In this document: positions 1 to 55,692 of the stretch, one piece after another | How the letters are laid out: each line of letters begins with the position of its first letter | Numbering within the stretch: the first letter of the stretch is position 1 | Program-made: the position numbers and the translations under genes | NCBI GenBank assembly: GCA_041662585.1 | Contig: JBAZSG010000001.1 | Coordinates: 2,381-66,380, forward strand | Reading direction: 5' to 3' | DNA length: 64,000 bases | DNA from: Patescibacteria group bacterium | GTDB taxonomy: Bacteria; Patescibacteriota; Patescibacteriia; UBA1558; GWA2-36-10 | Notes under the pieces: generated by a model | Database searches by the model: none | Told to the model about the DNA's origin: nothing | Seen by the model: only the letters and a program-made list of their open reading frames with translations

Positions 1-1156
1 CTTCAAAACTACAATCAGAACATTCATAAGCCCCTAAAACTTTACGAAAACTGCCAACCTCATGTTCAAAACAGGTACCAAAAGTATTACAAGTGTTCCA
101 ACCTAGCGATCCTACATTTGTACAATCATATTCTTCTATATTCTGTCCTACTGGAATTACACAGCTACTAATATTTTGACAAGTCTCACCCGTATTGCAA
201 TCATCATTATTTATACAACAATCATCTTGACTAAGGGTAAAATCCTCACAGTCCATAGCAGCATTAACATTACCACCTCCATCTTCACACCTACCAGGAT
301 AATAAAAATATTCTAAACAATTGTCACATTTTTTATCAATAGATTTTACAACCGAACAAGTTTGTGACACAAGTACTGGAGGATCTCCAACAAAACGATC
401 TGGACAATCAGTAGCAGCAGTGGCCACGGTACAATCATTGTTGGTGATACTACAACCATAATTATATTGCTCATAACAATTAAAACATCCTTCTATTGGC
501 TTAGCGCTGGTTGGAAAATCAGGATCGGCTGATGCTGATTTTTCAATAGGAAAACCCAATTTCCAAGCTTCATTGTCTGTGTCTGTAAAAGTACAATCAC
601 CGCCATTTTCTACACAAAATATTCCATTAGGAGCACAGCTTAAACCATCTCTATCTACTGTACCAGTACAACGCCAATCTTCTTGATTGAGGATACTAGC
701 AAAAGTATTGGGATTTAAAGCATTGAGATAGTCAGTAGAAGTAGCTACGGAATACAAATTACCACCTCTTTGAATACCAAAAGGATCATCAAAACATACC
801 CAACCCAAAGGACTACCACTAGCACTCAAATTGCTACCAGACCAAGCACAACCAGTAATATTTCCGGTATTGGCTTGTACTTCTAGTCCATAATCTATAC
901 CTAAACATTGACTGTATTCACCTGGTGTATCAAAATCATTATAACAATTTAAACTAAGCCAACCAGCTCCAATAGGATTGGGAGTAGTAGGATCATTGTC
1001 GTGTTGAGGATTCCAAGCCCAGCCACTGATTCTGTATGGATAGGAAGTTATTTGAGCTGTACTAGTGACAGATTTTTGTATCAAAACCAGCGAAATAGCC
1101 AAAACAGCCATGATTATTAGGCGGCTATAAAAATGAAAGTGAAAATCAGATTTCAT
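1..1156 (-). CDS. Secreted Cys-rich protein, partial (N-terminus at 1156, C-terminal part runs off the window start)
   Basis: Reverse-strand reading from ATG (complement of 1154-1156) gives MKSDFHFHFYSRLIIMAVLAISLVLIQ... a signal-like N-terminus followed by a long Cys/Asp/Gly/Asn-rich frame with no stops to position 1. The composition is similar to the Cys-rich C-terminus of the 3640-5136 protein. Confidence 0.55.
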   Translation of the reverse strand, partial: MKSDFHFHFYSRLIIMAVLAISLVLIQKSVTSTAQITSYPYRISGWAWNPQHDNDPTTPNPIGAGWLSLNCYNDFDTPGEYSQCLGIDYGLEVQANTGNITGCAWSGSNLSASGSPLGWVCFDDPFGIQRGGNLYSVATSTDYLNALNPNTFASILNQEDWRCTGTVDRDGLSCAPNGIFCVENGGDCTFTDTDNEAWKLGFPIEKSASADPDFPTSAKPIEGCFNCYEQYNYGCSITNNDCTVATAATDCPDRFVGDPPVLVSQTCSVVKSIDKKCDNCLEYFYYPGRCEDGGGNVNAAMDCEDFTLSQDDCCINNDDCNTGETCQNISSCVIPVGQNIEEYDCTNVGSLGWNTCNTFGTCFEHEVGSFRKVLGAYECSDCSFE

Positions 1157-1236
1157 CTAATATACAATCAATTTAAAATTAATAAAATAAATTATTAGTA
1201 TGTTTATTATACCATAAAATATAATTTACCAACAAG

Positions 1237-1267
1237 AAAACCACCTCCCTAAAAGGAGGTGGTTTTT
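1237..1267. terminator. Rho-independent terminator hairpin (bidirectional A-run/T-run flanks)
   Basis: AAAA-CCACCTCC-CTAAAA-GGAGGTGG-TTTTT immediately after the stop of the 1275-3602 minus-strand gene. Confidence 0.6.
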
Positions 1268-1274
1268 CAAAAAA

Positions 1275-3602
1275 TTATAAAGCTTGAAATGATCGCCAAC
1301 CACCAGTACCACAAATCATTAATCTACTAACTCCATCTTTCCAAAACATTCTGCCAATTTCTGATATTTCATCACAATCAGTAAATGGAGGCTCGGCAGT
1401 ATTATAATCCAACTGAACATAATTATATGTAGCATCATTAGAACTTACTACACCCAAACTATTACTCTTTAAAATTACCTTATTAGCACCATTCCAAAAT
1501 CGAAGCTCATCAGTAGTATCATCTTGATAAATACCCCAATAAGGACTGGCACCACTCTGAATATCTATTTCGGCATTACCACTATTTGATTTGACATGTA
1601 AGGTGCTGTTTGGAGCAGCTGTACCAATACCTACTCTAGGAACACTACCAGTTGGATCAGTTGGAAATACTATAAATGAATTATCTCTAGTAATAGAAAC
1701 CGCTGCATCTGAATAGCCCCAAGCAAAAGTTTTATCAGCAAGAGCTGAGAGTTGCATATTGTGACCACCAGCAAATGAATAATCACCAGCTGCCACATTA
1801 TTTTTACCACCGGCAACCGTAGCATATAGTCCAGAGGCAAGATTAGATCTACCTCCTCCCACTGCTGAATAAGACCCAGAGGCAGTATTTGAATCACCAC
1901 CACCAACAATTGAATATGGCCCAGAGGCTGTATTTAAAGTGCCTCCCAAAACAGCTGAATAAGACCCAGAAGCAGTAGAAGTAGCACCACCACCGATAAC
2001 AGCATATGGACCAATAACCAAATTACTTAAACCACCGCCGATAAAAGCTTCGTTGGCAGTGACATTGGCTTTATTGAGCCAACCACCACCGATAAAAGCT
2101 CTAGTACTAGAGGCAACGTTGGTATCACCACCAGCAACAGTAGAACCATCTCCAGCTGCTTTATTTTTTAAACCACCACCAACAGTAGTCATATTTCCAG
2201 TAGCTTGATTACCACTTTCAGCAGTTACACTACCACCTCCAGATACGGTAGAATAATAACCAGTAGCTATATTACCATTACCACCACCTACTACAGATGC
2301 TAAACCACTAGCCATAGTATCAACACCAAAAGCTACTGAACCGGGGCCAATATTTGCATAACTCCAACGAGTTGCCAAATTGGGCAATGTACCAGCTCTG
2401 ATAGCTCCTGCCTTATCTGGCAACCAAAGAAATCTACTAGTAGTTATACCATTGGGATCAATGCCAGTAACAACAGCACCGGCTGGCAAACTAGTACTAC
2501 TAGTAGCCGATAAAAATGCATTACTTTCTACTCTGGATAAATTCTTACTAGCATCTTCTGTCCAATGACTTACTCCAGTGGCCCCATTAAAACAATTATT
2601 ACCATTAATATCACAAATATTCCCAAAAACATTTATATTCCCATCATCTGTAAAAATTACTCGATTGACTGCGTCTTTCCAAAAGAAAAGATCGTCAGAT
2701 ACAGGCTCATGATAAATTCCCCAATGACCGTTTTGTGTCCAACCAGTTTGAATGTCTAGTTCTGCATTACCAGTATTTGTATTAATGTGCACAAGACCAT
2801 CTGAAGCAGTGTTTGGAGTAGAAGTACCCACACCCACTCTACCATTAGCATCAATTACAAATGGTGTTGGTTCATAATTATTATTAGTTGTCTTAATATA
2901 AACTGTAGGATTGGGACCACCATTAGAAAGCCACAATGAAGCCTTGCCATCTAATACATTTAGATTGGTATCTTGGATTTTCATAGCACCCGATTCACCA
3001 GAATTAATAAGATTAAAAGCAGGATAAGCTAAATTATTAGTTGCAAAAGAAATATCTAATCCTATAAAGTCACTAGCAGCAGAAGTATGAAAAATCTTCA
3101 GTCCAGCATTTTGATCAGTACTTCCCATACTCACCAAACCACCAACTTGCTTTATTATAGAATTTTCTATCTCATTAGTAGTCTCATTAGATGTTGCGTC
3201 TCCATCATTCTTAAATCTTGGTATAAAATATTCTGTTCCACTACCAAGCACACCTCCTGTTACTGTTGGCCAGCCAGATATACAGCCATATTGTGAACCA
3301 GAACCAGATTCATCGCTATTAAGACAAATTTTAGAAAATGTAGCGGTTCCAGGTGCAGTTACATTTATTACATTAGCGCCATTACTATCAATGGTTATAT
3401 TATCGCCTGTAATATCAAAACCATTCAAACTTAAATTTTCTTTTAAGGGATTGACCACAAATCTATTGTTGGCTGTCTGCCCCGGTAAAGCATCTGGTGA
3501 TACCCACTGAGCTGTGGCATATTGCTGTATCAAAGTAATACTCACTATGGATACAATAGCCACCAAAACTGATAAATGCCGATTATTTATTTTTTTGAAC
3601 AT
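1275..3602 (-). CDS. Secreted Gly-rich repeat, fibre/adhesin-like protein (775 aa)
   Basis: N-terminal signal anchor, then a conserved segment QWxSPDALPGQTANNRFVVNPLKENL shared with the 3640-5136 protein. Central tandem repeats of type GGxxNxASGxYSxVxGG (YadA-head-like or tail-fibre-like). Two copies of a module G(V/I)GTxxPNxx...LHxxxxxGNAE(L/I)DIQxGxxxxxWGIYxxxxxDxLxFW. Confidence 0.6.
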   Translation of the reverse strand: MFKKINNRHLSVLVAIVSIVSITLIQQYATAQWVSPDALPGQTANNRFVVNPLKENLSLNGFDITGDNITIDSNGANVINVTAPGTATFSKICLNSDESGSGSQYGCISGWPTVTGGVLGSGTEYFIPRFKNDGDATSNETTNEIENSIIKQVGGLVSMGSTDQNAGLKIFHTSAASDFIGLDISFATNNLAYPAFNLINSGESGAMKIQDTNLNVLDGKASLWLSNGGPNPTVYIKTTNNNYEPTPFVIDANGRVGVGTSTPNTASDGLVHINTNTGNAELDIQTGWTQNGHWGIYHEPVSDDLFFWKDAVNRVIFTDDGNINVFGNICDINGNNCFNGATGVSHWTEDASKNLSRVESNAFLSATSSTSLPAGAVVTGIDPNGITTSRFLWLPDKAGAIRAGTLPNLATRWSYANIGPGSVAFGVDTMASGLASVVGGGNGNIATGYYSTVSGGGSVTAESGNQATGNMTTVGGGLKNKAAGDGSTVAGGDTNVASSTRAFIGGGWLNKANVTANEAFIGGGLSNLVIGPYAVIGGGATSTASGSYSAVLGGTLNTASGPYSIVGGGDSNTASGSYSAVGGGRSNLASGLYATVAGGKNNVAAGDYSFAGGHNMQLSALADKTFAWGYSDAAVSITRDNSFIVFPTDPTGSVPRVGIGTAAPNSTLHVKSNSGNAEIDIQSGASPYWGIYQDDTTDELRFWNGANKVILKSNSLGVVSSNDATYNYVQLDYNTAEPPFTDCDEISEIGRMFWKDGVSRLMICGTGGWRSFQAL

Positions 3603-3639
3603 ACACTTATATTAATTTATTTTATAAATTTTAAAATAT

Positions 3640-5136
3640 TTAAGACCCCCAACCGTTAGCACAAGCAGTTGGCCCTGGAGTAGTACAATTGTCAATGACA
3701 TAATATTCTTCATGAGGCGGCTCTTCAGATATACATCTAAATCTACATTGACATACAGCACTATTTTCTAAACAGGCTGTTTCACAAGCAACTTTTGCGC
3801 GATTAAAGGTGGAATAGGCTGAACAGTTGTACAATCCAGCTTCTGAAATATCATAGCTATATCTAACACTGCCAACTGGATCACATTCTTCTCCATTGGT
3901 TGGTTCTACAATACTGTTACCACAAACATTGGTAGGGGCATAACAGACAATATTGAAATGTCCAGCACCAGAAGTATTGGGGTTTATTCTGTCCGATACA
4001 AGCTCCACAGTGCAAGAATCTCCAGAAGTAGAATTCATAGTAATACTAGGAGTATTTAAAACCAGTCCATCTTCAGCAGTTAAAGTAGAAGCAGTCAATT
4101 CGGTCATAAATCCTTGGTTGGCCAATAAAGTATTGGCTGATATTGAAGAGTTGACTAATAGATTATCAAATCTACCCGTACCCAGCACATCCAATTGAGC
4201 CTGTGGATTGATTGTACCGATACCTACATAGCCATTGTTGGTCAAAGTCAGTTTGTTGCTATCATGCCAAAATCGCAAAGATTGATCATTTATATCTTGA
4301 TAAATGCCCCAATGCTTACTATTCCAACCACTTTGAATATCTAGCTCAGCGTTGGCATATTGCGTTTGGATATGTAAAATACCGTCTGAAGCAGCTGTGG
4401 GATTGGGTGTGCTAGTGCCTAGCCCCATCCTACCTCTAGCAGTAAGTACAAAAGGACTGTCGTCATAATTTTGACCAGTGTCATTGATATAAAGAGAATT
4501 CCCATTGGTACCGTTTCTAATAAAAATAGAACTACGATTGCTAGTAGATGAACCATTGTCACTATCAATGATCCTAATAGCTCCTCCATCACCATCACTG
4601 CTATTGTTTATATTTAAGGCGCTGTAGCTAATATTGGGATTGGCAAAATCAAGACTCAAAGCATTGTAAGGCTGACCAAAGTCTCTAATCCAAAAAGATC
4701 CATCATCCAATTTGTATCTACCAGAAGAAACTTCTTTTATTTTAGAATTACCCAATTCATTGGCACCAATATATTGAGGTATGTAGCCCACATCTCCTGC
4801 TCCGGTCAAACCTCCGGTAACGCTAGGCCAATCTGTCTTGCATGAATATACACCAGTACCATCACCAAAGCACAATTCTCTGTCACCATCTATAATAATA
4901 GCTCTGCTAGCACTAGAACCATCAATGGTAAGATCGGTACCAGTGATACTCTTGATACCCAATTGCAAATTTTCTTTTAAGGGATTGACCACAAATCTAT
5001 TGTTGGCAGTCTCTCCTGGCAAAGCATTTGGGTCTGTCCACTGAGCCATGGCATATTGCTGTATCAAAGCAATGCTCACAACTGAAACAGCTCCAACAAA
5101 AAATAATAAATACCAATTTTTAATTCTAGGATGCAT
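3640..5136 (-). CDS. Secreted fibre/adhesin-like protein, paralog of 1275-3602 (498 aa), with Cys-rich C-terminal domain
   Basis: Same conserved N-terminus (ALIQQYAMAQWTDPNALPGETANNRFVVNPLKENL), same LHIQTQYANAELDIQSGWNSKHWGIYQD...LRFW module, and a C-terminal ~100 aa with about 14 Cys. Confidence 0.6.
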   Translation of the reverse strand: MHPRIKNWYLLFFVGAVSVVSIALIQQYAMAQWTDPNALPGETANNRFVVNPLKENLQLGIKSITGTDLTIDGSSASRAIIIDGDRELCFGDGTGVYSCKTDWPSVTGGLTGAGDVGYIPQYIGANELGNSKIKEVSSGRYKLDDGSFWIRDFGQPYNALSLDFANPNISYSALNINNSSDGDGGAIRIIDSDNGSSTSNRSSIFIRNGTNGNSLYINDTGQNYDDSPFVLTARGRMGLGTSTPNPTAASDGILHIQTQYANAELDIQSGWNSKHWGIYQDINDQSLRFWHDSNKLTLTNNGYVGIGTINPQAQLDVLGTGRFDNLLVNSSISANTLLANQGFMTELTASTLTAEDGLVLNTPSITMNSTSGDSCTVELVSDRINPNTSGAGHFNIVCYAPTNVCGNSIVEPTNGEECDPVGSVRYSYDISEAGLYNCSAYSTFNRAKVACETACLENSAVCQCRFRCISEEPPHEEYYVIDNCTTPGPTACANGWGS

Positions 5137-5241
5137 AATTTATAATTTTAAACTAAATATATTATAACACATTTTATAAAAAATAGTAATACACTATTTA
5201 GTTACCAAAAAATATAAGCCAAATATTCTTATAACAATCTG

Positions 5242-5276
5242 TTGACTAACCCGATACTGCAAGGTAAACTTATAGT
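5242..5276 (+). promoter_or_regulatory. Candidate sigma70-type promoter upstream of lemA
   Basis: TTGACT, 17-nt spacer, TAAACT, with TATAGT just downstream; about 35 nt upstream of the lemA ATG. Confidence 0.3.
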
Positions 5277-5306
5277 ATCAAAATTTAATAATTAAATTTA
5301 AAAACT

Positions 5307-5864
5307 ATGAACAATATTCTTATTGTCATACTAGTAGTAATAGTATTGCTAATTTTATGGCTAATAAACGTCTATAACAGCCTAATAAAACTCAAAAATC
5401 GTGTCAAAGAAGCTTGGTCTGATATAGATGTACAGCTAAAACGTCGCTATGATTTGATTCCAAATCTTATGGAAACTGTCAAAGGCTATATGAAACACGA
5501 AGAAGGTGTGCTAGTAAAAGTCACTGAAGCTAGAACCAGTGCTATGAATGCCAAAGGCATTGAAGAAAAAGGCAAGGCTGAAAATATGCTGTCTGAAACT
5601 CTCAAAAGCTTGTTTGCAGTAGCTGAAAACTATCCAGATTTAAAGGCCAGTCAAAATTTCTTACAATTACAAGATGAAATTTCTGACACCGAAAACAAAA
5701 TTCAAGCATCACGTAGATTTTATAACGGACAAGTTAGAGACTTTAATACCAAGATAGAAGTCTTTCCAAACAACTTAATTGCTGGTATGTTAAAATTTAA
5801 AGCTTGGGATTTCTTTGCTATAGAAAATGACAAAGAAAAAGAAAATGTGCAAGTCAAATTTTAA
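5307..5864 (+). CDS. lemA: LemA family membrane protein
   Basis: N-terminal TM helix followed by [31 protein letters not shown], typical of LemA. Sits upstream of htpX, a common pairing. Confidence 0.85.
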
Positions 5865-5888
5865 ACTAACCCCTCCTATCCTCCCCTG

Positions 5889-5917
5889 TTAAGGGGAGGA
5901 TTTTTTTATTTAATAGT
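5889..5917 (+). terminator. Rho-independent terminator after lemA
   Basis: TCCTCCCCT-GTTA-AGGGGAGGA hairpin followed by TTTTTTT. Confidence 0.65.
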
Positions 5918-5975
5918 CCCCCCTGTCAAGAAAAATTATTGCCTACCGACAAACAGGTAAGGGGTTAATAATAGA

Positions 5976-6005
5976 TTGACAAATAAGTCACTATATTGTT
6001 ATATT
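5976..6005 (+). promoter_or_regulatory. Candidate sigma70-type promoter upstream of htpX
   Basis: TTGACA, 17-nt spacer, TTATAT/TATATT; about 30 nt upstream of the htpX ATG. Confidence 0.3.
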
Positions 6006-6036
6006 AAGCTTACAAAAACTAATAAAATAAAATTAA

Positions 6037-6909
6037 ATGTACAATCAAATTGATAGTAATAAACGCAAAAGTCTAGCCTTAATGATACTGTTTGTTTTGG
6101 TTATTGTTGCTCTAGTATTTGCTTGGGCGCAATATTCTGAAGCAGGCTACTATATGCTGATTCCAGCTACTTTGTTTGCTACTGGTATGAGCTTGATTAG
6201 CTTTTTTGCTGGAGACAAAATAGCCCTAGCTGCTTCAGGAGCCAAAAAAATAAAAAAAGAAGACAATCCTTACTTGTGGCGTATAGTAGAAAACTTGAGT
6301 ATTACTGCTGGCTTATCAATGCCCAAAATACACATCATAGATGATCAAGCTATGAACGCTTTTGCAACTGGTCGTGATCCAGAGCATGCCTCTATCGCTG
6401 TGACTACTGGCCTACTGGCCAATCTAGAAAACGAAGAACTAGAAGGTGTCATTGCTCACGAACTCTCTCATGTCAAAAACTATGACATCAGACTAATGAT
6501 GGTAGTAATTGTTTGTGTGGGTATCATCACACTTTTAGCTGATTGGATGATGCGTAGCTTTATTTTCCGTGGACGAGGTAGTAATGACAATAATAAAGGA
6601 GGTCCACTAATAATAATTGGCATTGTACTAGCCATACTATCTCCTCTCTTTGCCAAACTAATTCAAATGGCCGTATCTAGAAAAAGAGAATTTTTGGCCG
6701 ATGCCTCTGCCTCTTTACTTACTCGCTATCCAGAAGGGCTAGCTAGAGCCTTGGAAAAAATATCGGCACAAAATATACCCCTTAAAAAAGCCAACAAAGC
6801 TACTGCTCACCTCTATATCTCTAGCCCTTTCAAAGGCCAAAGTATATCCAAATTATTTTCTACTCATCCTCCTGTAGAAGAGAGAATAAAAGCTCTAAGA
6901 ACTATGTAA
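6037..6909 (+). CDS. htpX: Zinc metalloprotease HtpX (peptidase M48)
   Basis: HELSHVKNYD (HExxH) zinc motif between TM segments; overall HtpX-like length and topology. Confidence 0.9.
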   Translation: MYNQIDSNKRKSLALMILFVLVIVALVFAWAQYSEAGYYMLIPATLFATGMSLISFFAGDKIALAASGAKKIKKEDNPYLWRIVENLSITAGLSMPKIHIIDDQAMNAFATGRDPEHASIAVTTGLLANLENEELEGVIAHELSHVKNYDIRLMMVVIVCVGIITLLADWMMRSFIFRGRGSNDNNKGGPLIIIGIVLAILSPLFAKLIQMAVSRKREFLADASASLLTRYPEGLARALEKISAQNIPLKKANKATAHLYISSPFKGQSISKLFSTHPPVEERIKALRTM

Positions 6910-6913
6910 AAAT

Positions 6914-9382
6914 ATGATAAATAATAGTGCTCAAAATATATTAAATAAATTTACTCAGCACTTTAAACAAGTGCTCATTGGTGCTCAAAATATAGCTTTT
7001 AGTAAAAAACGTGAATCTATAGAACCAGAAGATCTGTTGATAGCTTTGATAAAAACCAAAGGTTCTTTGGGGTCTGATATTTTGATAAAACAAAATATAG
7101 ATATTAGTTTTTTACAAACCAGTGATTATACTTCTTATCAAAGTGTAGCTATCAATCCCGAACATTTACCCCAACCATCTTTGGAGACTCAAAAAATAAT
7201 AGAAAAAGCCGTAGTGACTGCCTACAAACACAAACACAAATATATTGGTACCGAGCATTTGTTATGGGGTATTAGTCAAAGTGCTGATGAAAAAACTGCA
7301 CAAATATTACATAAGGCCAAAATAAATTCTCAAAGCCTAAAACAACATCTAAATTTGATCTTAAAAAGCACTTCCAAGTTTGGTGACTTGACCGAAGATG
7401 AAGAACTAAAAGAAATTGAAGATTTGCTAGATGATGAACGTATAGAAAACAACAATCTAGAAAGTTTTACTATCAATCTAACTAGCGATGAAGTACAAAA
7501 AAACATAGACCCAGTAATAGGCCGTAGCAAAGAAATAGACAGATTGATAGAAATATTGTCTCGTCGTACCAAAAATAATCCTGTGCTCCTAGGAGACGCC
7601 GGCGTGGGCAAAACAGCCATCATTGAAGGTCTAGCCAAACGAATTACTGAAAACAAAGTGCCAGATGTACTATTAAACAAAACCATACTTAATCTCGATA
7701 TATCTAGCCTCATAGCTGGTACTATGTATAGAGGTGAATTTGAAAATAGACTAAAACAAGTAATATCAAGCATCAAAAATAGCCCAAATACTATACTGTT
7801 TATTGATGAACTACACACTATCATGGGTGCTGGAGCTACCACTGGATCACTAGATGCGGCCAATATCCTAAAACCAGCTCTTTCCCGTGGACAACTAAGA
7901 TGTATTGGGGCAACTACTTTTGAAGAATACAAAAAACATATTGAAAGTGACAAGGCACTTGAGCGAAGATTTCAAACTATAGTAATAGAAGAATCATCAG
8001 ATGACGAAGCTTATCAAATATTACAAGGTTTAAGAGAAAACTACGAAAAATTTCATAATGTCTCTATAGATGATGGAGCTATTAAAGCAGCTGTAGAACT
8101 CAGTAAAAGATTTTTACCTGACAAAAAATTACCTGACAAAGCTATTGATCTGATAGATGAAGCAGCCGCGCGCTTGAGAGTCCAAAAAACTAGACATGGA
8201 TTACTCAAAAAAATAAAAATCTGGCAAGATGAATTGAACAATCATCAAAACAATAAAAAACAAGCTATTTTGGAAGAAAAATATCTAGAGGCTTTGGAAT
8301 ACAAAGAAAAGGAAGAACAAACTATGGAACAATTGTCACTCTTGCAAGCCAAACAAGATAAAATAAAAAACAAACTTCTAGGAAACATAAGCGAAGAGGA
8401 TATCAAAACAGTGCTCGCCAAAATAACTGGCATTCCCCTAACTTCTATCAGCACTAGCGAAAACAAAAAATTGTTAAACTTAGAAAATAAAATTGCACAA
8501 AGCATTTTTGGCCAAGACAAAGCTCTAACCAATATTGCCCATACCATACGCAAAGCCAAAACTGGCTTAAACAACAAAAATAAACCCCTAGCCTCTTTTA
8601 TGTTTCTAGGACCAAGTGGTGTCGGCAAGACAGAAACTGCCAAACAATTGGCCAAAGAAATTTTTGGTGGAGAAAAAAATATGCTGCGTATTGATATGAG
8701 CGAATTTTCAGAAAAATTCAATATTTCCAAACTGATTGGTTCTCCGGCTGGCTATGTTGGCTACCGAGAAGGTAATAAACTGACTGATTTGGTAAAAAAT
8801 AAACCCTATAGTCTGATATTGTTTGATGAAATAGAAAAAGCGCATCCTGATGTTTTCAATCTGCTATTGCCTGTTTTGGAAGAAGGAGAGCTCACTGATG
8901 CTACTGGCAAAACTGTCAATTTTAGAAATTGTGTGATTGTTATGACTTCCAACGTTGGTTTAAATATCTTCAATCAAGAAGCTATTATGGGTTTTGACAC
9001 ACTAGAAAATAAAACTAGCTTCAATAAAAAAAGCGAAGAAATACTAAGCTCTCTTAACAAATATTTTCCTCCAGAATTTTCCAATCGTTTGGACAATATC
9101 ATAGTATTTGAACCATTGAGCATTGATACAGCCAAAAAAATTATCAAAAAAGAATTGATTACTATTGCTGAGCGTCTCAATGAACAGGCTATAGCTATAG
9201 AAATTGATAATAAAATAATCAAGCATCTTCTAAAACAACCCGATGCTATCAAAGAAGGAGCTCGTAGCCTCAAAAGGCTAGTAGATCAACATATATCCAA
9301 TGTTTTGGCCAATAATATATTAAATAAAAATAGTAAAAAAATAAAAATCTCTCTAGAAAAAAACAAAATAGCTATTAGATAA
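6914..9382 (+). CDS. Clp/Hsp100 family AAA+ chaperone ATPase (ClpC/ClpB-like, two NBDs)
   Basis: Clp_N-like N-terminus. NBD1 Walker A GDAGVGKTA and Walker B ILFIDELH; middle coiled-coil segment; NBD2 Walker A GPSGVGKTETAK and Walker B LILFDEIEKAH. Confidence 0.9.
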   Translation: MINNSAQNILNKFTQHFKQVLIGAQNIAFSKKRESIEPEDLLIALIKTKGSLGSDILIKQNIDISFLQTSDYTSYQSVAINPEHLPQPSLETQKIIEKAVVTAYKHKHKYIGTEHLLWGISQSADEKTAQILHKAKINSQSLKQHLNLILKSTSKFGDLTEDEELKEIEDLLDDERIENNNLESFTINLTSDEVQKNIDPVIGRSKEIDRLIEILSRRTKNNPVLLGDAGVGKTAIIEGLAKRITENKVPDVLLNKTILNLDISSLIAGTMYRGEFENRLKQVISSIKNSPNTILFIDELHTIMGAGATTGSLDAANILKPALSRGQLRCIGATTFEEYKKHIESDKALERRFQTIVIEESSDDEAYQILQGLRENYEKFHNVSIDDGAIKAAVELSKRFLPDKKLPDKAIDLIDEAAARLRVQKTRHGLLKKIKIWQDELNNHQNNKKQAILEEKYLEALEYKEKEEQTMEQLSLLQAKQDKIKNKLLGNISEEDIKTVLAKITGIPLTSISTSENKKLLNLENKIAQSIFGQDKALTNIAHTIRKAKTGLNNKNKPLASFMFLGPSGVGKTETAKQLAKEIFGGEKNMLRIDMSEFSEKFNISKLIGSPAGYVGYREGNKLTDLVKNKPYSLILFDEIEKAHPDVFNLLLPVLEEGELTDATGKTVNFRNCVIVMTSNVGLNIFNQEAIMGFDTLENKTSFNKKSEEILSSLNKYFPPEFSNRLDNIIVFEPLSIDTAKKIIKKELITIAERLNEQAIAIEIDNKIIKHLLKQPDAIKEGARSLKRLVDQHISNVLANNILNKNSKKIKISLEKNKIAIR

Positions 9383-16809: not shown

Positions 16810-18720
16810 CTATGCTTTTTCTGCTTCGGCCATCATTTGTTCTTCAAATTCTTTTTTGGCTTCTTCTATCTCAATCAATTGTCTTGGATCAGAAGTAATG
16901 ATTTGATGTTCTGCATAAGATGCTTGAATCTTTATAGCTGCGTGTTTGGCTCCAGCAAAAAATATCCCCTCTCCCAAACCTGCTTCAAGTAAAAGATATT
17001 TTTCTCCTTCAGTCAACATAAATGTTTTTTGTACTAGATTGACTGCTGCTGGTGTTTGTTTTAAAAGTAATTGTAGAGCACAATTGGTCACAATAGCATT
17101 GCCATAAGTAGAGGTCAAAAAGTCATTGACATCTTGAGTAATGGTAGTAATACCCAAATAATATTTACGACAACGCTTGACCAAGGCATACATAAACTTG
17201 GCACTATCTTCATGTCGCATCATAATCCAAGCTTCATCAACTACTAGCATTCTACGTTTGAGCTCACTTCTGATAATATTCCAGATATAGTTCATGATCA
17301 TATACATAGCAATTGGACGGAGCTCATCTTCTACATCTCTAATACAAAATACTACCAATTGATTATCTACTTTTATATTAGTCGGACTATTAAACAAACC
17401 CGCAAAAGTACCTTCGGTATATTTTTTGATACGTAAAGCCATGTCTTCACCACCCTCCATACTGAGCAATACCTCTTCCAAATCTGACATAACAGGAGCT
17501 TCAATATTGGACAAGTCACTAGCCGCTGTAATATCTTTTTTGGCATAAGTTTCAAGTATTGCCCTATCCAACAAAGAATCTTCTGAATTGGTAATATCGC
17601 CAATCATCAAACGAATCAAACCCTTGAGAGTAATGATAGCACTACGAAGTATATCTTCTGGCTTACTCTCTCCTCCTACTCCTCTTGGCAAATCAAAAGG
17701 ATTGAGCTTGCTCTCAGAATTGAGAGATACATTGATATAAGCTCCACCAACAGATTCAGATAAATGTTGATATTCATTTTCTGGATCAATAATGATAACA
17801 TCTGCTCCCAACATCATAGAACGAAGTATCTCCAACTTGATAGCATAAGACTTACCAGCACCAGAAGTAGCAAAAACTACCATATTGGCATTTTGCAAAG
17901 AAAATCTATCAAACAATATCAAACTATTGTTGTGTCTATTGATGCCATACAAAATACCCTCATCAGAAGTCAGCTCTGATGATACAAAAGGAAATGATGA
18001 AGCAATTGGTGAAGAGTTCATGTTGGTAGAAATGGTGAGTTCGTCATTGCCCAAGGGAAGTGTAGAATTGAATCCTTGTTCAGATTGAAATAATGCCCGA
18101 CGAGAATAGATGAGTTGCATACCCAATAAATTTTCTATCCTATCCGTAGCCAAATCAAGTTCATCTTTGTCTTTGGCATAGATAGTTACATAAAGTGCAA
18201 ATTGAAAAAACTTTTCCGTGCCCTGACTGAGACCATCACGAAGAGCTTCTATATCTTGTAAAGCTGTTTCGGTAATTGGATCACGGGGAGCGCCTTTTTC
18301 ATGATCAGCTATAATCTGAGCCTGCATAGTACCTACTTTATTTTTCAATTGTTTCAGTACTATTTGAATATCCAATGGATAAAAAAACATCGAAATATCC
18401 AAAGTCAAACTTTCATTGATGATAGGAGCAAACCAACCAATGGTAACATAACGAGGATAAGTCATCACAAATAAAGTACGTACAAAAAGATTGTTTAATT
18501 GCAAAAATTTTGGATCTACTTTTAAGGAAGCTGGCGCTATAATATCTCTGACCGAAACAATGCCTTCTCGAAAGACCTTTTCAGCTTCAATCAATTGTTT
18601 ATCTCTGGATATTTGCTCTTCTGGAGATACTTTGGCTCTATCACTAGCCGACAATCTTTCTAGATCTTTATCTACCTTAGTTTCTTTTTGAGCTTGTTTT
18701 ATTTTATTAAAACCAAACAT
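16810..18720 (-). CDS. VirB4/TrbE/CagE-family T4SS ATPase, C-terminal (ATPase) part
   Basis: Walker A VVFATSGAGKSY, Walker B MLVVDEAWIMM, ITQD motif; length and order consistent with the VirB4 NTPase domain. Confidence 0.8.
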   Translation of the reverse strand: MFGFNKIKQAQKETKVDKDLERLSASDRAKVSPEEQISRDKQLIEAEKVFREGIVSVRDIIAPASLKVDPKFLQLNNLFVRTLFVMTYPRYVTIGWFAPIINESLTLDISMFFYPLDIQIVLKQLKNKVGTMQAQIIADHEKGAPRDPITETALQDIEALRDGLSQGTEKFFQFALYVTIYAKDKDELDLATDRIENLLGMQLIYSRRALFQSEQGFNSTLPLGNDELTISTNMNSSPIASSFPFVSSELTSDEGILYGINRHNNSLILFDRFSLQNANMVVFATSGAGKSYAIKLEILRSMMLGADVIIIDPENEYQHLSESVGGAYINVSLNSESKLNPFDLPRGVGGESKPEDILRSAIITLKGLIRLMIGDITNSEDSLLDRAILETYAKKDITAASDLSNIEAPVMSDLEEVLLSMEGGEDMALRIKKYTEGTFAGLFNSPTNIKVDNQLVVFCIRDVEDELRPIAMYMIMNYIWNIIRSELKRRMLVVDEAWIMMRHEDSAKFMYALVKRCRKYYLGITTITQDVNDFLTSTYGNAIVTNCALQLLLKQTPAAVNLVQKTFMLTEGEKYLLLEAGLGEGIFFAGAKHAAIKIQASYAEHQIITSDPRQLIEIEEAKKEFEEQMMAEAEKA

Positions 18721-25877: not shown

Positions 25878-28800
25878 TTATTTAATCTTACTTAGGCTAC
25901 CTTTATCTACTGCGGCTGCTTTTTTCTTTGCTTCCCTTATAGTTATACCAGGTATTTCTTGCATAAACTTTTGTACATGCATCTGTACATACAATTCATT
26001 TCTGATGGTATCTGCCAAATTATCTGTAACGACTTTACCTAGTTTACCTCCTCCACCCACGATAGATTGAGCTAGAAGTTTTATTTGGTCTGAATTACCA
26101 GCTTGAAGAATTTGTCTTTGTTGATCAACTGTAGCTACTTTAGCCAATTCTTCAAACAAATGACGAGTATTTGGATGCTTAATATCCATTTCTTCTAGCC
26201 TTGAATAATCTGATCCATCTGTACCATTTTTTAATATAGCCCTAGAATAAAGATTCTTATTATTAGGATTGGTTAATCCAAGCTCTCTTCTCTTCAAAGT
26301 ATTTTGTAAACGTATTAAACTATTTTGCTCTGATAATAATTTTGAAACAAGCTTTTTATCAGGGTCTGGTTTAGCTTTTTCTGTAGCTATATCTTGCTTC
26401 AATTCTTCTATTCTAAGATTATTTTTATTATTTGGATCATTCAAGTCTTTTAATTTACTAGTAATAGCTTTTCGTAAAGCTTCAGCTTCTTTATCATAAT
26501 TTGCCTGATCAAAAACAAATCTATCGTTTTCTTTCTTCTGATCTCTCTTATGGTCTTTTTCTGCCTGTTTTTCCATTCTTTCTCTAATCTCGTTTCTGAC
26601 TCTTTCTTCTGCCTTTTCTCTTGACTCTGGTGGAGTGCCATCAAAACCAGCTTGTGTCTTTGGAGACCAAGCTTTCATCGCTTCTTCAACCTTTTCATCT
26701 AATTCATCTTCATCTATTTCTTGTCTTTGTACTGTTTTTGCCCGCTCTGGTCTTGGCCCTAAATTGGCCAAAATAGCAGCTTCCATATCAGCTATTATAT
26801 CTTCTTCCATGACCTTAAATACAGGTGATTCACGCAAACCTAATTTGGATTTTTCTACATAAGCCAATTCTTCTTCTAACCCTTTTCTTTCCTCTTTACT
26901 TAAACCAGTATTAGTTAATTTTACTTTTAATTCTGTTGCCTGTTCTTCTAATTTAACTTCCTCTTCTTTTATTTCATCATTGGTATAATGCCCCATGAGA
27001 TTTCTTCTGGTCTTATACAATTTGTCAGTCGCTTCTTTACCTTTGTCACTGTTTTGCCATTCTTCGTTATTTTTGTCCCATGCTTCTTTTGTTTTGGCTT
27101 TTCTTATTTCAAAATCTTTTTCAGACTCAAAAGAATTTTTAGCAAGATGATTTATTGAATCATTATCAAAATTGACTTCTCCACTATTAAATCCTTGTTC
27201 TAAGGCCCCTACTATAGCTTCGTGCAAAGCTTCGGCTTGTTCTGGATAAACTTGAAGAAGAGCTTCAAATAATTTTATAGCTTCATTTTGATCATTTGTA
27301 GAAAGAACTCCTTTGTTGTTATGTTTAGTCTCTTGACGCTTGGTTTCTAAATTTACTTCAGTAGCCAACATACCAAGATCTTTTTTGTCTTTAGCGGTTC
27401 CTCTGATACCATCTTTATCTTTTTTACCATATTTAATATCTGCTCCCTTCTCTGTATCATTATTTATATCTACCAAAACCTCCTCTCCTTCTTGACGAAA
27501 TGCTTCTGATTCAGCTTGCCTTGTCTTTTTAAATTGATTTAATACATCCCTACCAATACCTCCACCTTCATAATTTGGATCTTCCAAAAGAGCCCTGATA
27601 ATATTACGCATACCTGCTGTTGTTTTACCATCTTCGTCTAAAACACCATCAGCTTCCTTATCAAGCAATTTTCTAGAGCCAACATCATTTAGATCTTTTT
27701 TAACAGCCGCTAAATCTGTATTGGTATTTGCATATCGAGCATGTAAGGCATCAATCCTAGGTTGATCATTTATTCTCTCTAAAGCTTCAATATCCTCAGC
27801 TGCTTGTTTTGCATCGTGTTGTTCTTTTCTATCGGTTCTTATGATGGCTGCTTTTGTTTTTGCTTCATCATGTCCACCTCCCCAAGAAGTAATAAGCTGT
27901 GTCGCCCTCGCTACTTTAGAACTCTCTCCAATAGCCTTAGGTAAAAATTTACCAATTAACGGAATATCTTTTAATTTATCAGGTGTAGATGATTGAGTTC
28001 TATAAAATTCTTCTTTTTGTTTAGGATTAATATATTTGGTATCTTCCGCGTGTTCAGCAAGAATCCTAGCTGTGTTTCTACCTTGCATTTCCATAGCTCC
28101 TCTTTGCAGTTTACCTCCATAAAAAGGTACTTTGGTAGCAACTCCTGTAAATTTACCCAAAAGTGTATCCTTCTTTGGTTTTCCTTTATCATCTACCATA
28201 CGCTCAGCAATAGCAGTGCCGGCTCTCATAGCCAAAGCTTTTGGATAACGTCTAGCAATATGTCCAGCTGTGCTCTGAATTTTGGCCATACCCTTGGCTG
28301 CCACACTAGCTCCAGCCGCACCAGAAGCAGCTGCCATCTTAATACCCATCATAAGTAAGGCAATAGCAATGATATAATTCATCATATTACTGCTATCCAA
28401 AAATTCAGTTGCTCCTTGTGCCCCTCCTCCGGTCATAAAAGTACTATAGGCATTTCCATTGCCAACAATACTAAAAGTAAGCCACAAGAAAAAAGCCAAC
28501 ATCGGACCAGTTACCAGATTGGTACCTAGCTGTTTTGTCCAAGTATTATAAAAACTATTGGTAGCTGGAAAAATACTAGCCATAAAAGCCAAAGGAGCCA
28601 TAATAATAGCTATCCACAAAGCTACAATTCTCATCATCAACATCATAACCATTACGCCCACAATTACCACAAGTATTGCTACTAGAGCTGCTCCTAAAAC
28701 CATAGATACTACATAATCCCCAAAACCAGTAACAGGAGCATCGGGATTAATAGTGGTAAATTTATGCAAACCAATGGCGACCACCACTCCTCCTGACATT

Positions 28801-29264: not shown

Positions 29265-29299
29265 ATTTATATAAGTTATTTAAAAACTATTTTTTAAAT

Positions 29300-53722: not shown

Positions 53723-54142
53723 TTAAAAATCGGCTACTTCTTGCCAAGAACTCAAAATAATCTGTGGTTTTATTTTGGTTACATCAATTTCCAGCTTACG
53801 CACCACTACTCCCACTGTAGAAGATGCTTGAATATTTCTGGTTTGTCCACCGGTATTGGTAACAAAATACCCGCAAGTCCCCAGACTAAAATTTAAACTA
53901 CCATAGCCAACAAAAGGAAGAGAACCTTTCATCTGCTGCAAAGCCTCTTCGGCACAAGCATTGGTCAAGTGCCTAGCCTGATAAGATTGCTGTAAAAGCA
54001 AACTGTTTTTTGATAAATTGGCCCCCACTAAAAGCAAAGATGTAGCAATGGCTACCGCTATAGCACCCACTATTACCAAAACTAGCAAGATAGAATATCC
54101 TTGATCTTTATTATAACATATTTTATCAACTACTCTGAACAT
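53723..54142 (-). CDS. Pilin-like/pilus-associated small protein lacking canonical prepilin cleavage motif
   Basis: N-terminal hydrophobic helix YSILLVLVIVGAIAVAIATSLLLVG without the G-F-T-L-x-E signature. Positioned at the end of the pilin gene run. Confidence 0.4.
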   Translation of the reverse strand: MFRVVDKICYNKDQGYSILLVLVIVGAIAVAIATSLLLVGANLSKNSLLLQQSYQARHLTNACAEEALQQMKGSLPFVGYGSLNFSLGTCGYFVTNTGGQTRNIQASSTVGVVVRKLEIDVTKIKPQIILSSWQEVADF

Positions 54143-54146
54143 AAAA

Positions 54147-54653: not shown

Positions 54654-54662
54654 ATAATGATA

Positions 54663-55295: not shown

Positions 55296-55692
55296 TGATA
55301 CTAAAATTAATTGTGCCCGTACTTTGAGGACTGGCTGAAAATTTAGCAAAAACTACTTCCGATAAACCAGAGATTTGTATAATATCACTGATATTATAGT
55401 TCTCATCATAATTAATGTCTCGAGACAAATAACTACTACCTTTAAAAAGAGTGATTTGTCCAGAAGATAAAAAAACTCCCCAACTACTATCACGGCTACT
55501 GGCCAATGATAAGAGATTGGCTCTTCTTAAAGCTTGGACTAATTCCATGGTAGCCAGCTCCAAATTATTAGAATTCTGAAATTTATTATAAGACGGTAAA
55601 GTAATGCCAGACAAAATACCAATAACGGCTATAACCAAAATCATTTCTAGTAATGTGAATCCAACGGTTTTTATATTTTTTAATCCTGACAT
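55240..55692 (-). CDS. Type IV pilin/pseudopilin
   Basis: MSGLKNIKTVGFTLLEMILVIAVIGILSGITLPSY: canonical prepilin signature. Confidence 0.75.
   Translation of the reverse strand: MSGLKNIKTVGFTLLEMILVIAVIGILSGITLPSYNKFQNSNNLELATMELVQALRRANLLSLASSRDSSWGVFLSSGQITLFKGSSYLSRDINYDENYNISDIIQISGLSEVVFAKFSASPQSTGTINFSINANTNKTITINSRGIISY

What the first reader, a model, noticed from the sequence alone, without database searches (positions are those of the whole stretch)
1..5136. Cluster of three secreted proteins: two paralogous fibre-like proteins with a conserved mature N-terminus and repeated tail-fibre-like module
The 775-aa and 498-aa proteins share a near-identical segment right after the signal anchor (AQW-x-x-P-x-ALPG-x-TANNRFVVNPLKENL). 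Both carry one or two copies of a ~60-aa module GxGTxxPNxx...LHxxxxxxNAE(L/I)DIQxGxxxxxWGIYxDxxDxxLxFW. The GIGTxxP...LH(V) opening is reminiscent of phage tail-fibre and endosialidase chaperone-type domains. The longer protein also has a long run of GGxxNxASGxYSxVxGG beta-helix-like repeats, as in YadA heads and tail fibres. The paralog and the upstream partial gene end in Cys-rich domains instead. This could be a family of surface fibres or adhesins diversified by domain swapping, or a phage-derived receptor-binding protein kept by the cell.
Basis: partly seen in the sequence, partly recalled or inferred. Interest (0 to 1): 0.6.

Follow-up and report, generated by a model that had tools for sequence, protein, structure and literature searches.

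The report
Tail-fibre-like adhesins heading a pilus operon
Two paralogous secreted proteins of an ultra-small Patescibacteria (CPR) bacterium are relatives of the trimeric, tail-fibre-like 'MAT' adhesins that Bdellovibrio uses to recognise prey, and in related genomes they always sit at the head of the type IV pilus operon, which makes them good candidates for how these episymbionts grip their hosts.

Summary
The genes at 3640-5136(-) (498 aa, B) and 1275-3602(-) (775 aa, A) are paralogs: 41% identity over about 325 aa, E 3e-66. They share a 63-70 aa module, two copies in A and one in B. A also has 12 UspA1-head-like GG repeats (PDB 3PR7, E 1e-20). No Pfam, NCBIfam or PHROG family matches either protein.

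A family profile matches four solved Bdellovibrio MAT fibre structures, best Bd2133 (8OND, E 1.9e-9 over about 200 aa). The module is therefore one MAT-type beta-helix unit.

There are no phage genes nearby. In every sufficiently long related Patescibacteria locus the order is fixed: ClpB-HtpX-LemA facing away, then 1-3 fibre paralogs, a Cys-rich protein of 650-970 aa (the window's partial third gene), then pilM-N-O-B-T-C and prepilins.

The fibres share a strongly conserved non-prepilin hydrophobic N-terminus and a QW..P..PG..VNP..DL.L segment, but they carry swapped C-terminal tips.

Best reading: Sec-exported trimeric surface fibres, co-encoded with type IV pili, that bind host surfaces. 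This is a new variant of a known kind. "Prophage remnant" is not supported, and the pilus context was missed.

The parts
3640..5136 (-). Fibre paralog B, 498 aa (NCBI tag WCS88_01530). Layout: signal peptide, conserved N-terminal segment, beta-rich region, one MAT-type module, Cys-rich tip.
   Evidence: ORF. 100% match to P0001. Paralogy with A. Family profile hits Bd2133 (8OND).
5044..5136 (-). B aa 1-31: Sec-type N-terminus (MHPRIKNWYLLFFVGAVSVVSIALIQQYAMA|QW) with A-x-A before the conserved QW. It has no prepilin G|FTLxE motif.
   Evidence: Sequence and alignment. The hydrophobic segment is the most conserved part across 19 paralogs. True prepilins in the same window serve as contrast. Cleavage is inferred, not shown.
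4822..5043 (-). B aa 32-105: conserved mature N-terminal segment QW.DP..LPGE.....VVNP..E.L.L.G..I...L.ID ... (I/L)C..G..C...W.
   Evidence: Alignments A1 and A6. W33, P36, P40, P52 and L57 are invariant.
4225..4434 (-). B aa 235-304: the module (GRMGLGTSTPN...LHIQT..NAELDIQSG..HWGIYQD...LRFW...), i.e. one MAT-type beta-helix unit. It is followed by a restart of the GYVGIGTxxP motif at aa 302-311 (about 4204-4233).
3643..4014 (-). B aa 375-498: Cys-rich C-terminal tip with 12 Cys. It is shared only with P0002 (78%) and P0003/L001 (56%).
   Evidence: No Pfam match.
1275..3602 (-). Fibre paralog A, 775 aa (WCS88_01535). Layout: signal peptide, N-terminal region homologous to B, module 1, linker, UspA1-head-like repeats, module 2, small disulfide knob.
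   Evidence: Same-architecture orthologs are L003a, P0044, P0081 and P0091.
3273..3602 (-). A aa 1-110: signal peptide plus conserved N-terminal segment. It contains the 159-nt DNA repeat 3433-3591, which is 81% identical to 4967-5125 in B.
2637..2843 (-). A aa 254-322: module copy 1.
1728..2330 (-). A aa 425-625: 12 GG(x)N.A.G.YS.VGGG repeats, like the trimeric beta-roll head of Moraxella UspA1.
   Evidence: PDB 3PR7 at E 1e-20. Repeat positions. A weak UspA1_rep Pfam hit lies below threshold.
1452..1640 (-). A aa 655-717: module copy 2.
   Evidence: P0005 best stretch 656-715.
1278..1445 (-). A aa 720-775: C-terminal 'knob' (YNY.QLD....PP..DC.....GRM.......L.IC...GW), the commonest tip of the pilus-linked family.
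   Evidence: Alignment A9 of 19 sequences has P, C, C and W invariant. It is the only part of the AF2 model with pLDDT of about 80. No PDB or Pfam match.
1237..1266 (-). 13-bp GC-rich hairpin 8 nt after the stop codon of A. It could be an intrinsic terminator or attenuator between A and the third gene.
   Evidence: Free energy is -20.5 kcal/mol. Function was not tested. Relatives have only 33-40 bp gaps at this position.
1..1156 (-). N-terminal 385 aa of the third gene, the 'C-type' protein (MKSDFHFHFYSR..., GWAW..GWLSLNC, 28 Cys). It runs off the window start. The full length is about 788 aa, and it is the conserved gene immediately upstream of pilM in relatives.
   Evidence: P0191 100% identical. 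Synteny.
5137..5306 (.). 170-bp AT-rich divergent intergenic region between fibre gene B and lemA (5307-5864, +). It is the presumed promoter region of the fibre/pilus operon.
   Evidence: The same divergent LemA-HtpX-ClpB arrangement occurs in all related loci. Promoter-like matches are not above chance.

Best explanation
A and B are Sec-exported, trimeric, tail-fibre-like surface adhesins of a Patescibacteria (CPR) bacterium. They are small relatives of the 'mosaic adhesive trimeric' (MAT) fibres of Bdellovibrio.

Proposed mechanism:
1. The N-terminal hydrophobic segment takes the chain across the membrane. Whether it is then cut at A-x-A|QW or kept as an anchor is not known.
2. The conserved segment after it (QW..P..PG..VNP..DL.L.G..I, then a C..G..C...W loop) holds the base of the fibre at the cell surface, next to the type IV pilus machinery with which the genes are co-encoded.
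3. The GxGTxxPN..LH..NAE.DIQSG..HWGIYQ..L.FW module folds as an intertwined trimeric beta-helix stalk. In A, the UspA1-like beta-roll does the same.
4. The interchangeable C-terminal tip binds a ligand on the host cell. The tip is Cys-rich in B and a small disulfide knob in A.

Two paralogs with different tips give two specificities. Pili would supply long-range capture and retraction, and the fibres close-range binding.

Shown: the paralogy, the modules, homology to the MAT beta-helix and to the UspA1 head, domain swapping, and the conserved operon position in relatives. Inferred: trimer state, surface display, the anchoring role of the N-terminus, host binding, and co-transcription with pil genes in this genome.
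For: - Paralogy: 41% identity, E 3e-66.
- The module is repeated within and between the proteins.
- The family profile A2 hits four independent Bdellovibrio MAT fibre structures and almost nothing else in the PDB: 8OND Bd2133 at E 1.9e-9 over query 193-395 and chain 97-312, 8OJN at 5.4e-7, 8OML at 2.4e-5, 8ON4 at 0.013.
- The module-only profile A3 hits the GxVGIGTxxPxxxLHV motif at the start of each Bd2133 beta-helix subdomain.
- MAT fibres are surface-displayed trimers with a signal peptide, a conserved N-domain and swapped tips, and they bind prey glycans (PMC10769870, read).
- The A repeats match the obligately trimeric UspA1 head (3PR7, E 1e-20).
- Relatives with the same module end in Peptidase_S74 trimerisation chaperones, a ConA-like lectin, or C-type-lectin-like ends.
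- Domain swapping: the same N-terminal region is joined to different C-terminal ends.
- Synteny: 1-3 fibre genes, then the C-type gene, then pilM, pilN-like, two small genes, pilB, a response regulator, pilT, pilC and N_methyl prepilins. This holds in every related locus long enough to show it: L003-L006, L008, L026, L032-L035, L040, L048, L049 and the P0007 contig.
- The divergent LemA-HtpX-ClpB genes of that arrangement are present in the window at 5307-9382.
- Type IV pili mediate host binding in cultivated Patescibacteria, and additional close-range adhesins have been proposed (PMC12206443).
Against: - Nothing shows function directly.
- AF2 monomer models of A and B are poor (mean pLDDT 45), so the trimeric fold rests on sequence homology only.
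- The pil genes of this genome lie beyond the window start and could not be fetched. The operon link is therefore inferred from relatives, the closest with fibres 36-50% identical.
- A strong hairpin follows gene A, so A and B may be transcribed separately from the third gene and the pil genes.
- The N-terminal domain shows no detectable similarity to anything solved, and no Bdellovibrio protein was retrieved by the family searches. The anchoring mechanism may differ from that of MAT fibres.
- A's tip is more conserved than its N-domain between orthologs (72% against 42% identity to L003a). That is not the pattern of a fast-evolving receptor-binding tip.
- In a more distant locus (L048), the pilus-linked proteins keep the N-terminus and a knob-like C-terminal end but lack the NAE module.
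Confidence: 0.6

Rival explanations
1. The proteins are parts of the type IV pilus itself. In this reading they are a non-canonical class of pilus-borne adhesins, or priming-complex subunits. Their conserved hydrophobic N-terminus would insert into the pilus core, or dock onto the C-type protein or the minor pilins. They would then be functional analogues of modular pilins or of PilY1, rather than fibres standing on the cell body.
For: - They occupy the position directly upstream of pilM in every related locus.
- The hydrophobic segment is the most conserved part of the family, with 53% mean identity over aa 9-32 against 32% for aa 59-105. S18 and S21 are invariant. This is unusual for an ordinary signal peptide.
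- The 5' 159 nt of A and B are 81% identical in DNA.
- In Saccharibacteria, the adhesin candidate PilX2 has a non-canonical signal peptide and a bulky C-terminal domain (PMC12206443).
- The MAT paper itself raises a possible interplay between these fibres and type IV pili.
Against: - There is no Gly at -1, no FTLxE motif and no N_methyl Pfam hit. Canonical prepilins exist in the same window (G|FTLLE and G|FTLVE at 54147-55692) and at the end of the related operons.
- The hydrophobic stretch ends in an A-x-A|QW signal-peptidase-I-like site, followed at once by prolines. The long pilin alpha-1 helix is therefore not possible.
- A trimeric fibre does not fit a single pilin position.
Confidence: 0.2
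2. The genes are a leftover of a prophage or of a phage-tail-like particle: receptor-binding tail fibres kept by the cell.
For: - The GIGT..P...LHV repeat is common in proteins annotated 'tail fiber domain-containing' that end in Peptidase_S74.
- There is a weak PHROG tail-fibre hit at E 0.025.
Against: - There are no phage structural, integrase or lysis genes around. The neighbours are lemA, htpX, clpB, tRNAs and recG.
- The same chromosomal arrangement is conserved across several Patescibacteria lineages.
- The proteins have Sec-type N-termini, which phage fibres lack.
- There is no S74 domain in A or B.
- GC content is uniform with the rest of the window.
Confidence: 0.03
3. They are structural envelope proteins, for example S-layer-associated or cell-wall spacer fibres, with no ligand-binding role. 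In that case their place next to the pil genes reflects shared envelope biogenesis only.
For: - No binding domain of known specificity is recognisable in A or B.
- A's tip is well conserved between orthologs.
Against: - Every characterised relative of each recognisable part is an adhesin: MAT fibres, the UspA1 head, and S74 tail fibres.
- Tips are swapped between paralogs. Relatives carry lectin-type ends.
Confidence: 0.12
4. A is a trimeric autotransporter adhesin of the YadA/UspA1 type.
For: The 12 GG repeats match the UspA1 head (3PR7, E 1e-20).
Against: - There is no YadA_anchor beta-barrel and no coiled-coil stalk in Pfam scans.
- A ends in a 56-aa disulfide knob instead.
- The polarity is reversed, with the conserved attachment end at the N-terminus.
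- Patescibacteria are generally regarded as lacking an outer membrane (general knowledge, not tested here).
Confidence: 0.02

Closest known systems
Bdellovibrio bacteriovorus MAT (mosaic adhesive trimeric) fibres: Bd2133, Bd1334, Bd2439, Bd2734, Bd2740, Bd3182 (Caulton et al. 2024, PMC10769870; PDB 8OND, 8OJN/8ONB/8ONC, 8OML, 8ON4)
   Same: - Both have a signal peptide, a family-conserved N-terminal domain, a beta-helix stalk built from units that open with GxVGIGTxxPxxxLHV, and interchangeable non-S74 tips.
- Profile-level sequence homology runs over about 200 aa (E 1.9e-9).
- Both belong to bacteria that must recognise and attach to other bacteria.
   Different: - These proteins are much shorter: 400-820 aa with 1-2 stalk units, against about 1,000 aa.
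- The N-terminal region is different, and no similarity to it was detected.
- The tips are different: a Cys-rich domain or a 56-aa disulfide knob, with a UspA1-like beta-roll inserted in A.
- The host organism is a Patescibacteria member.
- The genes are fixed at the head of the type IV pilus operon, whereas the MAT paper reports no such pilus gene linkage.
Head domain of trimeric autotransporter adhesins (Moraxella UspA1, PDB 3PR7; YadA-like heads)
   Same: Both have 14-16 aa GGxxNxAxGxYSxxGGG repeats that form a trimeric beta-roll. The match covers A aa 486-630.
   Different: There is no C-terminal beta-barrel anchor and no coiled-coil stalk. The repeats are an internal insert in a fibre attached at its N-terminus.
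Phage tail fibres and tailspikes, and bacterial 'tail fiber domain-containing proteins', with the Peptidase_S74 intramolecular chaperone (K1F endosialidase, T5 pb1)
   Same: They share the GIGT..P...LHV stalk repeat. Relatives of the window proteins with the same module end in S74 (P0009, P0045, L009, L017).
   Different: A and B have no S74 domain, have secretion signals, and are not in a phage context.
Pilus-associated adhesins: modular type IV pilins and PilY1-type tip adhesins, including Saccharibacteria PilX2 (PMC12206443). The Streptococcus sanguinis PilB and PilC examples are from memory only.
   Same: Both are bulky adhesive domains encoded inside a type IV pilus locus, and both have a conserved hydrophobic N-terminus.
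   Different: There is no prepilin cleavage motif, no N_methyl domain and no PilY1 beta-propeller. The architecture is a predicted trimeric fibre.

Membership tests
MAT fibre superfamily (Bdellovibrio-type chimeric trimeric fibres) | Beta-helix stalk units homologous to those of solved MAT fibres (GxVGIGTxxPxxxLHV ... G.LRF ... V.I..GNVGIG) | tested here: met
   Profile A2 against the PDB gives 8OND at E 1.9e-9 over about 200 aa, 8OJN at 5.4e-7, 8OML at 2.4e-5 and 8ON4 at 0.013. Module profile A3 hits the motif at three subdomain starts of Bd2133.
MAT fibre superfamily (Bdellovibrio-type chimeric trimeric fibres) | N-terminal signal peptide | tested here: met
   The N-terminus has a positively charged start, about 20 hydrophobic residues and A/V-x-A before QW in all 19 paralogs. 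This is by inspection only. No signal-peptide predictor was available, and cleavage is not shown.
MAT fibre superfamily (Bdellovibrio-type chimeric trimeric fibres) | The conserved beta-rich N-terminal domain of about 130 aa shared by all 21 Bdellovibrio MATs | tested here: inconclusive
   The CPR family has its own conserved N-terminal segment. No Bdellovibrio protein was named among the hits of the family searches. No solved structure of the MAT N-domain exists for comparison.
MAT fibre superfamily (Bdellovibrio-type chimeric trimeric fibres) | Interchangeable C-terminal tip (S74 or non-S74) | tested here: met
   The same N-terminal region carries a Cys-rich tip (B, P0002, P0003), a knob (P0006, P0007 and many loci), or head repeats plus module plus knob (A, L003a).
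MAT fibre superfamily (Bdellovibrio-type chimeric trimeric fibres) | Trimeric fibre displayed on the cell surface that binds target-cell ligands | not testable with these tools
   Only monomer AF2 was available, and it gave pLDDT 45. This needs multimer modelling, EM and binding assays.
Trimeric autotransporter adhesins (YadA/UspA1) | C-terminal YadA-type beta-barrel membrane anchor | tested here: not met
   There is no YadA_anchor hit even at E up to 1. The C-terminus is a 56-aa disulfide knob.
Trimeric autotransporter adhesins (YadA/UspA1) | Head repeats of the left-handed beta-roll type | tested here: met
   3PR7 UspA1 at E 1e-20, matching A 486-630. There are 12 repeats.
Peptidase_S74 tail fibres / 'tail fiber domain-containing proteins' | C-terminal Peptidase_S74 intramolecular chaperone domain (PF13884) | tested here: not met
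   It is absent from A and B. It is present in the relatives P0009, P0022, P0025, P0026, P0029 and P0045.
Type IV pilins / minor pilins | Class III signal peptide (Gly at -1, F/M-T-L-x-E, N_methyl PF07963) | tested here: not met
   There is no N_methyl hit and no G|FTLxE motif in any of the 19 paralogs. Canonical prepilins in the same window and in related operons show what the motif looks like in these organisms.
PilY1/PilC-type pilus tip adhesins | C-terminal PilY1 beta-propeller domain | tested here: not met
   No Pfam hit in A, B, the window's third protein, P0191 or L003C.
Prophage / phage tail module | Neighbouring phage structural, integration or lysis genes | tested here: not met
   The neighbours are lemA, htpX, clpB, tRNAs and recG. 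PHROG hits are weak only. The chromosomal synteny is conserved.

The most novel reading that the evidence does not exclude
The fibres are not free-standing surface adhesins. They would be an undescribed accessory of the Patescibacteria type IV pilus. In this reading, tail-fibre-like trimers carry an exceptionally conserved, non-prepilin hydrophobic N-terminus and a QW..P..PG..VNP..DL.L segment. This N-terminal end would dock them onto the pilus machinery, the Cys-rich C-type protein or the pilus tip. The pilus would then present interchangeable phage-like receptor-binding tips to host cells, a 'pilus plus tail fibre' capture device. The third gene would be the adaptor.
Probability: 0.2. Interest if true: 0.8.

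Novelty: new variant of a known kind. Interest (0 to 1): 0.55.

Why it matters
Patescibacteria make up a large share of bacterial diversity, and all cultivated members live attached to other microbes. How they choose and hold their hosts is largely unknown outside Saccharibacteria, where type IV pili and unidentified close-range adhesins are implicated (PMC12206443).

This locus gives concrete candidates. They are relatives of the adhesins that the predator Bdellovibrio uses to recognise prey. They have swappable tips, and they are hard-wired to the pilus operon in a whole clade (Komeilibacteria-like, Parcubacteria-like and Nomurabacteria-like genomes).

If the reading is correct, tip repertoires could be read from metagenomes as predictors of host range. 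The suggestion in the MAT paper that such fibres interplay with type IV pili would also gain its first genomic support.

None of the three proteins matches any Pfam, NCBIfam or PHROG model, so they are currently invisible to annotation.

Tried and rejected
- Pfam, PHROGs and NCBIfam scans of A, B, the third protein, the knob and the Cys-rich tip gave nothing at or near threshold.
- AF2 predictions of B and A with 12-row alignments gave mean pLDDT 45. Only A 731-775 reached about 80. The Foldseek search of the A model against the PDB gave no hit at E<=0.001 and was discarded as meaningless. The other two fold searches were not spent on such poor models.
- Attempts to see beyond the window start all failed. 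The exact-product look-ups for A, P0001 (B) and P0191 found no record. A 40-mer from the window start is not in metagenome contigs. The genome is not a GTDB species representative.
- Profiles of the third-gene family and of the knob against the PDB gave no significant hits.
- I looked for a diversity-generating retroelement, prompted by a weak Mtd_N hit in P0042. The window has no template/variable repeat pair, and the only long repeat is the shared 5' end of A and B.
- Prepilin, TAA and prophage readings were rejected by the membership tests.
- Promoter-like matches in 1-5400 are at chance level (21 found against 21.3 expected).
A 6-sequence version worked.


Full report
WHAT IS THERE

The window is low-GC DNA (about 34%) from a Patescibacteria (CPR) metagenome-assembled genome. 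The 498-aa and 775-aa products are identical to NCBI proteins WCS88_01530 and WCS88_01535 of a 'Patescibacteria group bacterium' on a 702-kb contig.

Three genes lie head to tail on the minus strand:
- B, 3640-5136, 498 aa.
- A, 1275-3602, 775 aa.
- A third gene that starts at 1156 and runs off the window start.

Diverging from B across a 170-bp AT-rich spacer are lemA, htpX (Peptidase_M48-like) and a clpB-like gene, followed by three tRNAs and recG. The family assignment of the first three rests on the Pfam hits of their orthologs in relatives.

CHECK OF THE OBSERVATION

A and B are paralogs over aa 1-325 and 1-306, at 41% identity and E 3e-66. The first 55 residues are 67% identical, and the underlying DNA (3433-3591 against 4967-5125) is 81% identical.

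Pairwise E-values are 1e-12 to 1e-15.

A aa 425-625 holds 12 GG-repeats. They match the solved head of the Moraxella adhesin UspA1 (3PR7, E 1e-20).

B ends in a domain with 12 cysteines.

Two details were wrong. The partial gene is downstream of A, not upstream. What the window holds is its N-terminal 385 aa (28 Cys), not its end. P0191, which is 100% identical over 370 aa, shows a protein of about 788 aa.

WHAT THE PROTEINS ARE RELATED TO

No Pfam, PHROG or NCBIfam model matches any of the three proteins. Close homologs are rare: 9 proteins by single-sequence search and 29 with a profile, out of 5.8 billion.

A 63-position profile of the module (A3) found 27,505 cluster representatives at E<=1e-3 and 4,317 at E<=1e-10 among 1.84 billion. 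In most of them only the first 20-35 positions match (GxVGIGTxxPxxxLHV). These matches are repeated up to 46 times in giant proteins, some of which end in Peptidase_S74 (P0045). A smaller set has the full module.

Against the PDB, the module profile hit only Bdellovibrio fibre proteins (8OND Bd2133 and 8OJN). The profile of the whole family (A2) hit four of them: 8OND at E 1.9e-9, aligned over about 200 residues, then 8OJN at 5.4e-7, 8OML at 2.4e-5 and 8ON4 at 0.013.

The alignment shows that the window's module corresponds to one repeating beta-helix unit of Bd2133. The unit reads GxVGIxTxxPxxKLHV, a Trp-containing strand, G.LRF, then +V.I..GNVGIG.

These structures come from Caulton et al. 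2024 (PMC10769870). That paper defines the MAT family as surface-displayed trimeric fibres with a signal peptide, a conserved N-domain, a meandering trimeric stalk and swappable tips. The tips include S74, novel beta-sandwiches, TNF-like domains and a C-type lectin. One fibre binds prey glycans. Patescibacteria are not mentioned in the paper's main text.

ARCHITECTURE AND DOMAIN SWAPPING

Nineteen paralogs and orthologs taken from related loci share two N-terminal features:
- A hydrophobic N-terminus, M.K.NNWHLS.L..IVS..S..LIQQ.(A/V).A.
- A conserved start of the mature protein, QW..P..PG.....VVNP..(E/D)L.L.G..I, then a (I/L)C..G..C...W loop.

After a variable beta-rich stretch come one or two modules and then different ends:
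- The Cys-rich tip, found only in B, P0002 and P0003.
- A 56-aa knob with two invariant Cys, the most common end (alignment A9).
- In A and its orthologs (L003a, P0044, P0081, P0091): UspA1-like repeats, a second module and the knob.

The module also occurs outside this family in other secreted Patescibacteria proteins (Gracilibacteria, Peribacteria, Buchananbacteria). There it sits next to S74-type coiled-coil ends, a ConA-like lectin domain or C-type-lectin-like ends.

GENOMIC CONTEXT, THE MAIN NEW POINT

Every related locus long enough to show the neighbourhood has the same gene order. The order is ClpB, HtpX and LemA facing away, then 1-3 fibre paralogs, then the Cys-rich C-type protein (MKSDFHFHFYSR..., 650-970 aa). 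These are followed by PilM, a PilN-like protein, proteins of about 250 aa and 120 aa, PilB, a response regulator and PilT. Where the locus reaches far enough, PilC and N_methyl prepilins follow.

This holds in L003-L006, L008, L026, L032-L035, L040, L048, L049 and the P0007 contig. These loci are from Komeilibacteria, Parcubacteria, unclassified Patescibacteria and a Nomurabacteria-like genome.

The C-type family is Patescibacteria-specific: 56 proteins, all unnamed except one partial hit labelled as LamG domain-containing, and without Pfam domains apart from a PF13385 (LamG-type) hit in P0204. It has no PDB match.

The window shows the left half of this arrangement and is cut inside the C-type gene. 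The pil genes themselves could not be retrieved.

There are no phage genes, and GC content is even, so a prophage origin is not supported.

NOT PILINS

The same window holds a second pilus-type locus: PilB-like at 56918-58570, PilC-like at 55709-56914, and four small proteins at 53723-55692. Two of the small proteins have textbook prepilin ends, VG|FTLLEM and KG|FTLVEL, and two have variants. The related operons end in N_methyl prepilins.

The fibre N-termini have none of these features. They end in an A-x-A|QW site followed by prolines.

Even so, the hydrophobic stretch is the most conserved part of the family, at 53% mean identity against 32% for aa 59-105. An ordinary signal peptide would not be expected to be so conserved. 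This keeps open the idea that it does more than target the protein for export.

MECHANISM PROPOSED

The proposed steps are:
1. Sec export.
2. Trimerisation into a short fibre. This is inferred because both recognisable structural parts, the MAT beta-helix and the UspA1 beta-roll, are known only as trimers.
3. Attachment of the conserved N-terminal end at the envelope near the pilus machinery.
4. Binding of host-surface ligands by the variable tips, with pili providing reach and retraction.

The paralogy, the homology, the domain swapping and the synteny are shown. The rest is inference.

The main rival (probability about 0.2) is that the fibres are carried by the pilus or its priming complex rather than by the cell body.

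Three points weaken the simple adhesin picture:
- AF2 monomer models failed.
- A strong hairpin follows gene A (-20.5 kcal/mol).
- A's tip is more conserved than its N-domain between orthologs.

VERDICT

The proteins are best filed as MAT-like chimeric fibre adhesins. They form a new variant of a known kind because they are small, have their own N-terminal anchor and tips, occur in Patescibacteria, and are fixed at the head of the type IV pilus operon together with an uncharacterised Cys-rich partner.

Noticed in passing
window 53723-58985 (-): A second pilus-type locus. It has a response regulator (58623-58985), a PilB-like T2SSE ATPase (56918-58570), a PilC-like protein of 401 aa (55709-56914, assigned by sequence inspection only) and four small prepilin-like proteins. 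Two have canonical G|FTL(L/V)E ends. One (54663-55349) ends in a Cys-rich tail. A large PAS/HAMP/Cache histidine kinase follows at 50049-53210.
   Followed up: partly
window 1-1156 (-); L003:12588-14873 and orthologs: The third gene belongs to a Patescibacteria-only family (56 hits, unnamed apart from one partial hit labelled LamG domain-containing, no PDB match and no Pfam match apart from a PF13385 hit in P0204). It has a near-invariant N-terminus MKSDFHFHFYSR, GWAW..GW(L/I)SLNC motifs, 28-52 cysteines and a conserved C-terminal half (...IPSLVWIV.GDL.I...GTFIVLG...NDGRLQ.NPP.G..DFS..IPRFSE). It is always the gene just before pilM. Its role is unknown.
   Followed up: partly
window 3433-3591 and 4967-5125: The 5' ends of A and B (signal peptide plus first mature residues) are 81% identical in DNA, while the rest of the proteins is about 35-45% identical in amino acids. 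Either selection on this end is very strong or gene conversion has occurred between the tandem paralogs.
   Followed up: partly
window 1237-1266 (-): A perfect 13-bp GC-rich hairpin (-20.5 kcal/mol) lies 8 nt after the stop codon of A, in a 118-bp gap before the third gene. Related loci have only 33-40 bp gaps at this position.
   Followed up: partly
window 59736-59812 (-): A tRNA-Ile with anticodon TAT (UAU). From memory, most bacteria read AUA with a lysidine-modified CAU tRNA, so this may indicate an unusual AUA decoding strategy. This was not checked.
   Followed up: no
window 25878-38065 (-): Two very large adjacent ORFs of 2,921 aa and 1,128 aa. The first has only a CBM_4_9 carbohydrate-binding domain recognisable, and the second has no Pfam match. 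They may be further giant surface proteins.
   Followed up: no
window 16810-18720 (-): A TraG/VirB4-like P-loop ATPase (PF19044, E 7e-28). It is possibly part of the monoderm-type type IV secretion system described for Patescibacteria (PMC12102498, seen only as a title and abstract).
   Followed up: no
L010, L011, L014-L016, L021 (module-bearing proteins outside the pilus locus): Another group of module-bearing secreted proteins ends in a ...(I/L)C(L/I).(G/N/D).C(I/V)..W(E/K/Q)(D/E)LK... motif. This resembles the (I/L)C..G..C...W loop near the N-terminus of the pilus-linked fibres. Some of these genomes are labelled Gammaproteobacteria MAGs, which may be misbinned.
   Followed up: no
L048:3796-8909: In a Nomurabacteria-like genome, the three genes before the C-type gene keep the conserved N-terminus and a knob-like C-terminal end. 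They lack the NAE..DIQ module, and only one has a GIGT motif. The pilus-linked family is therefore defined by its ends, and the MAT-type stalk unit is exchangeable.
   Followed up: partly
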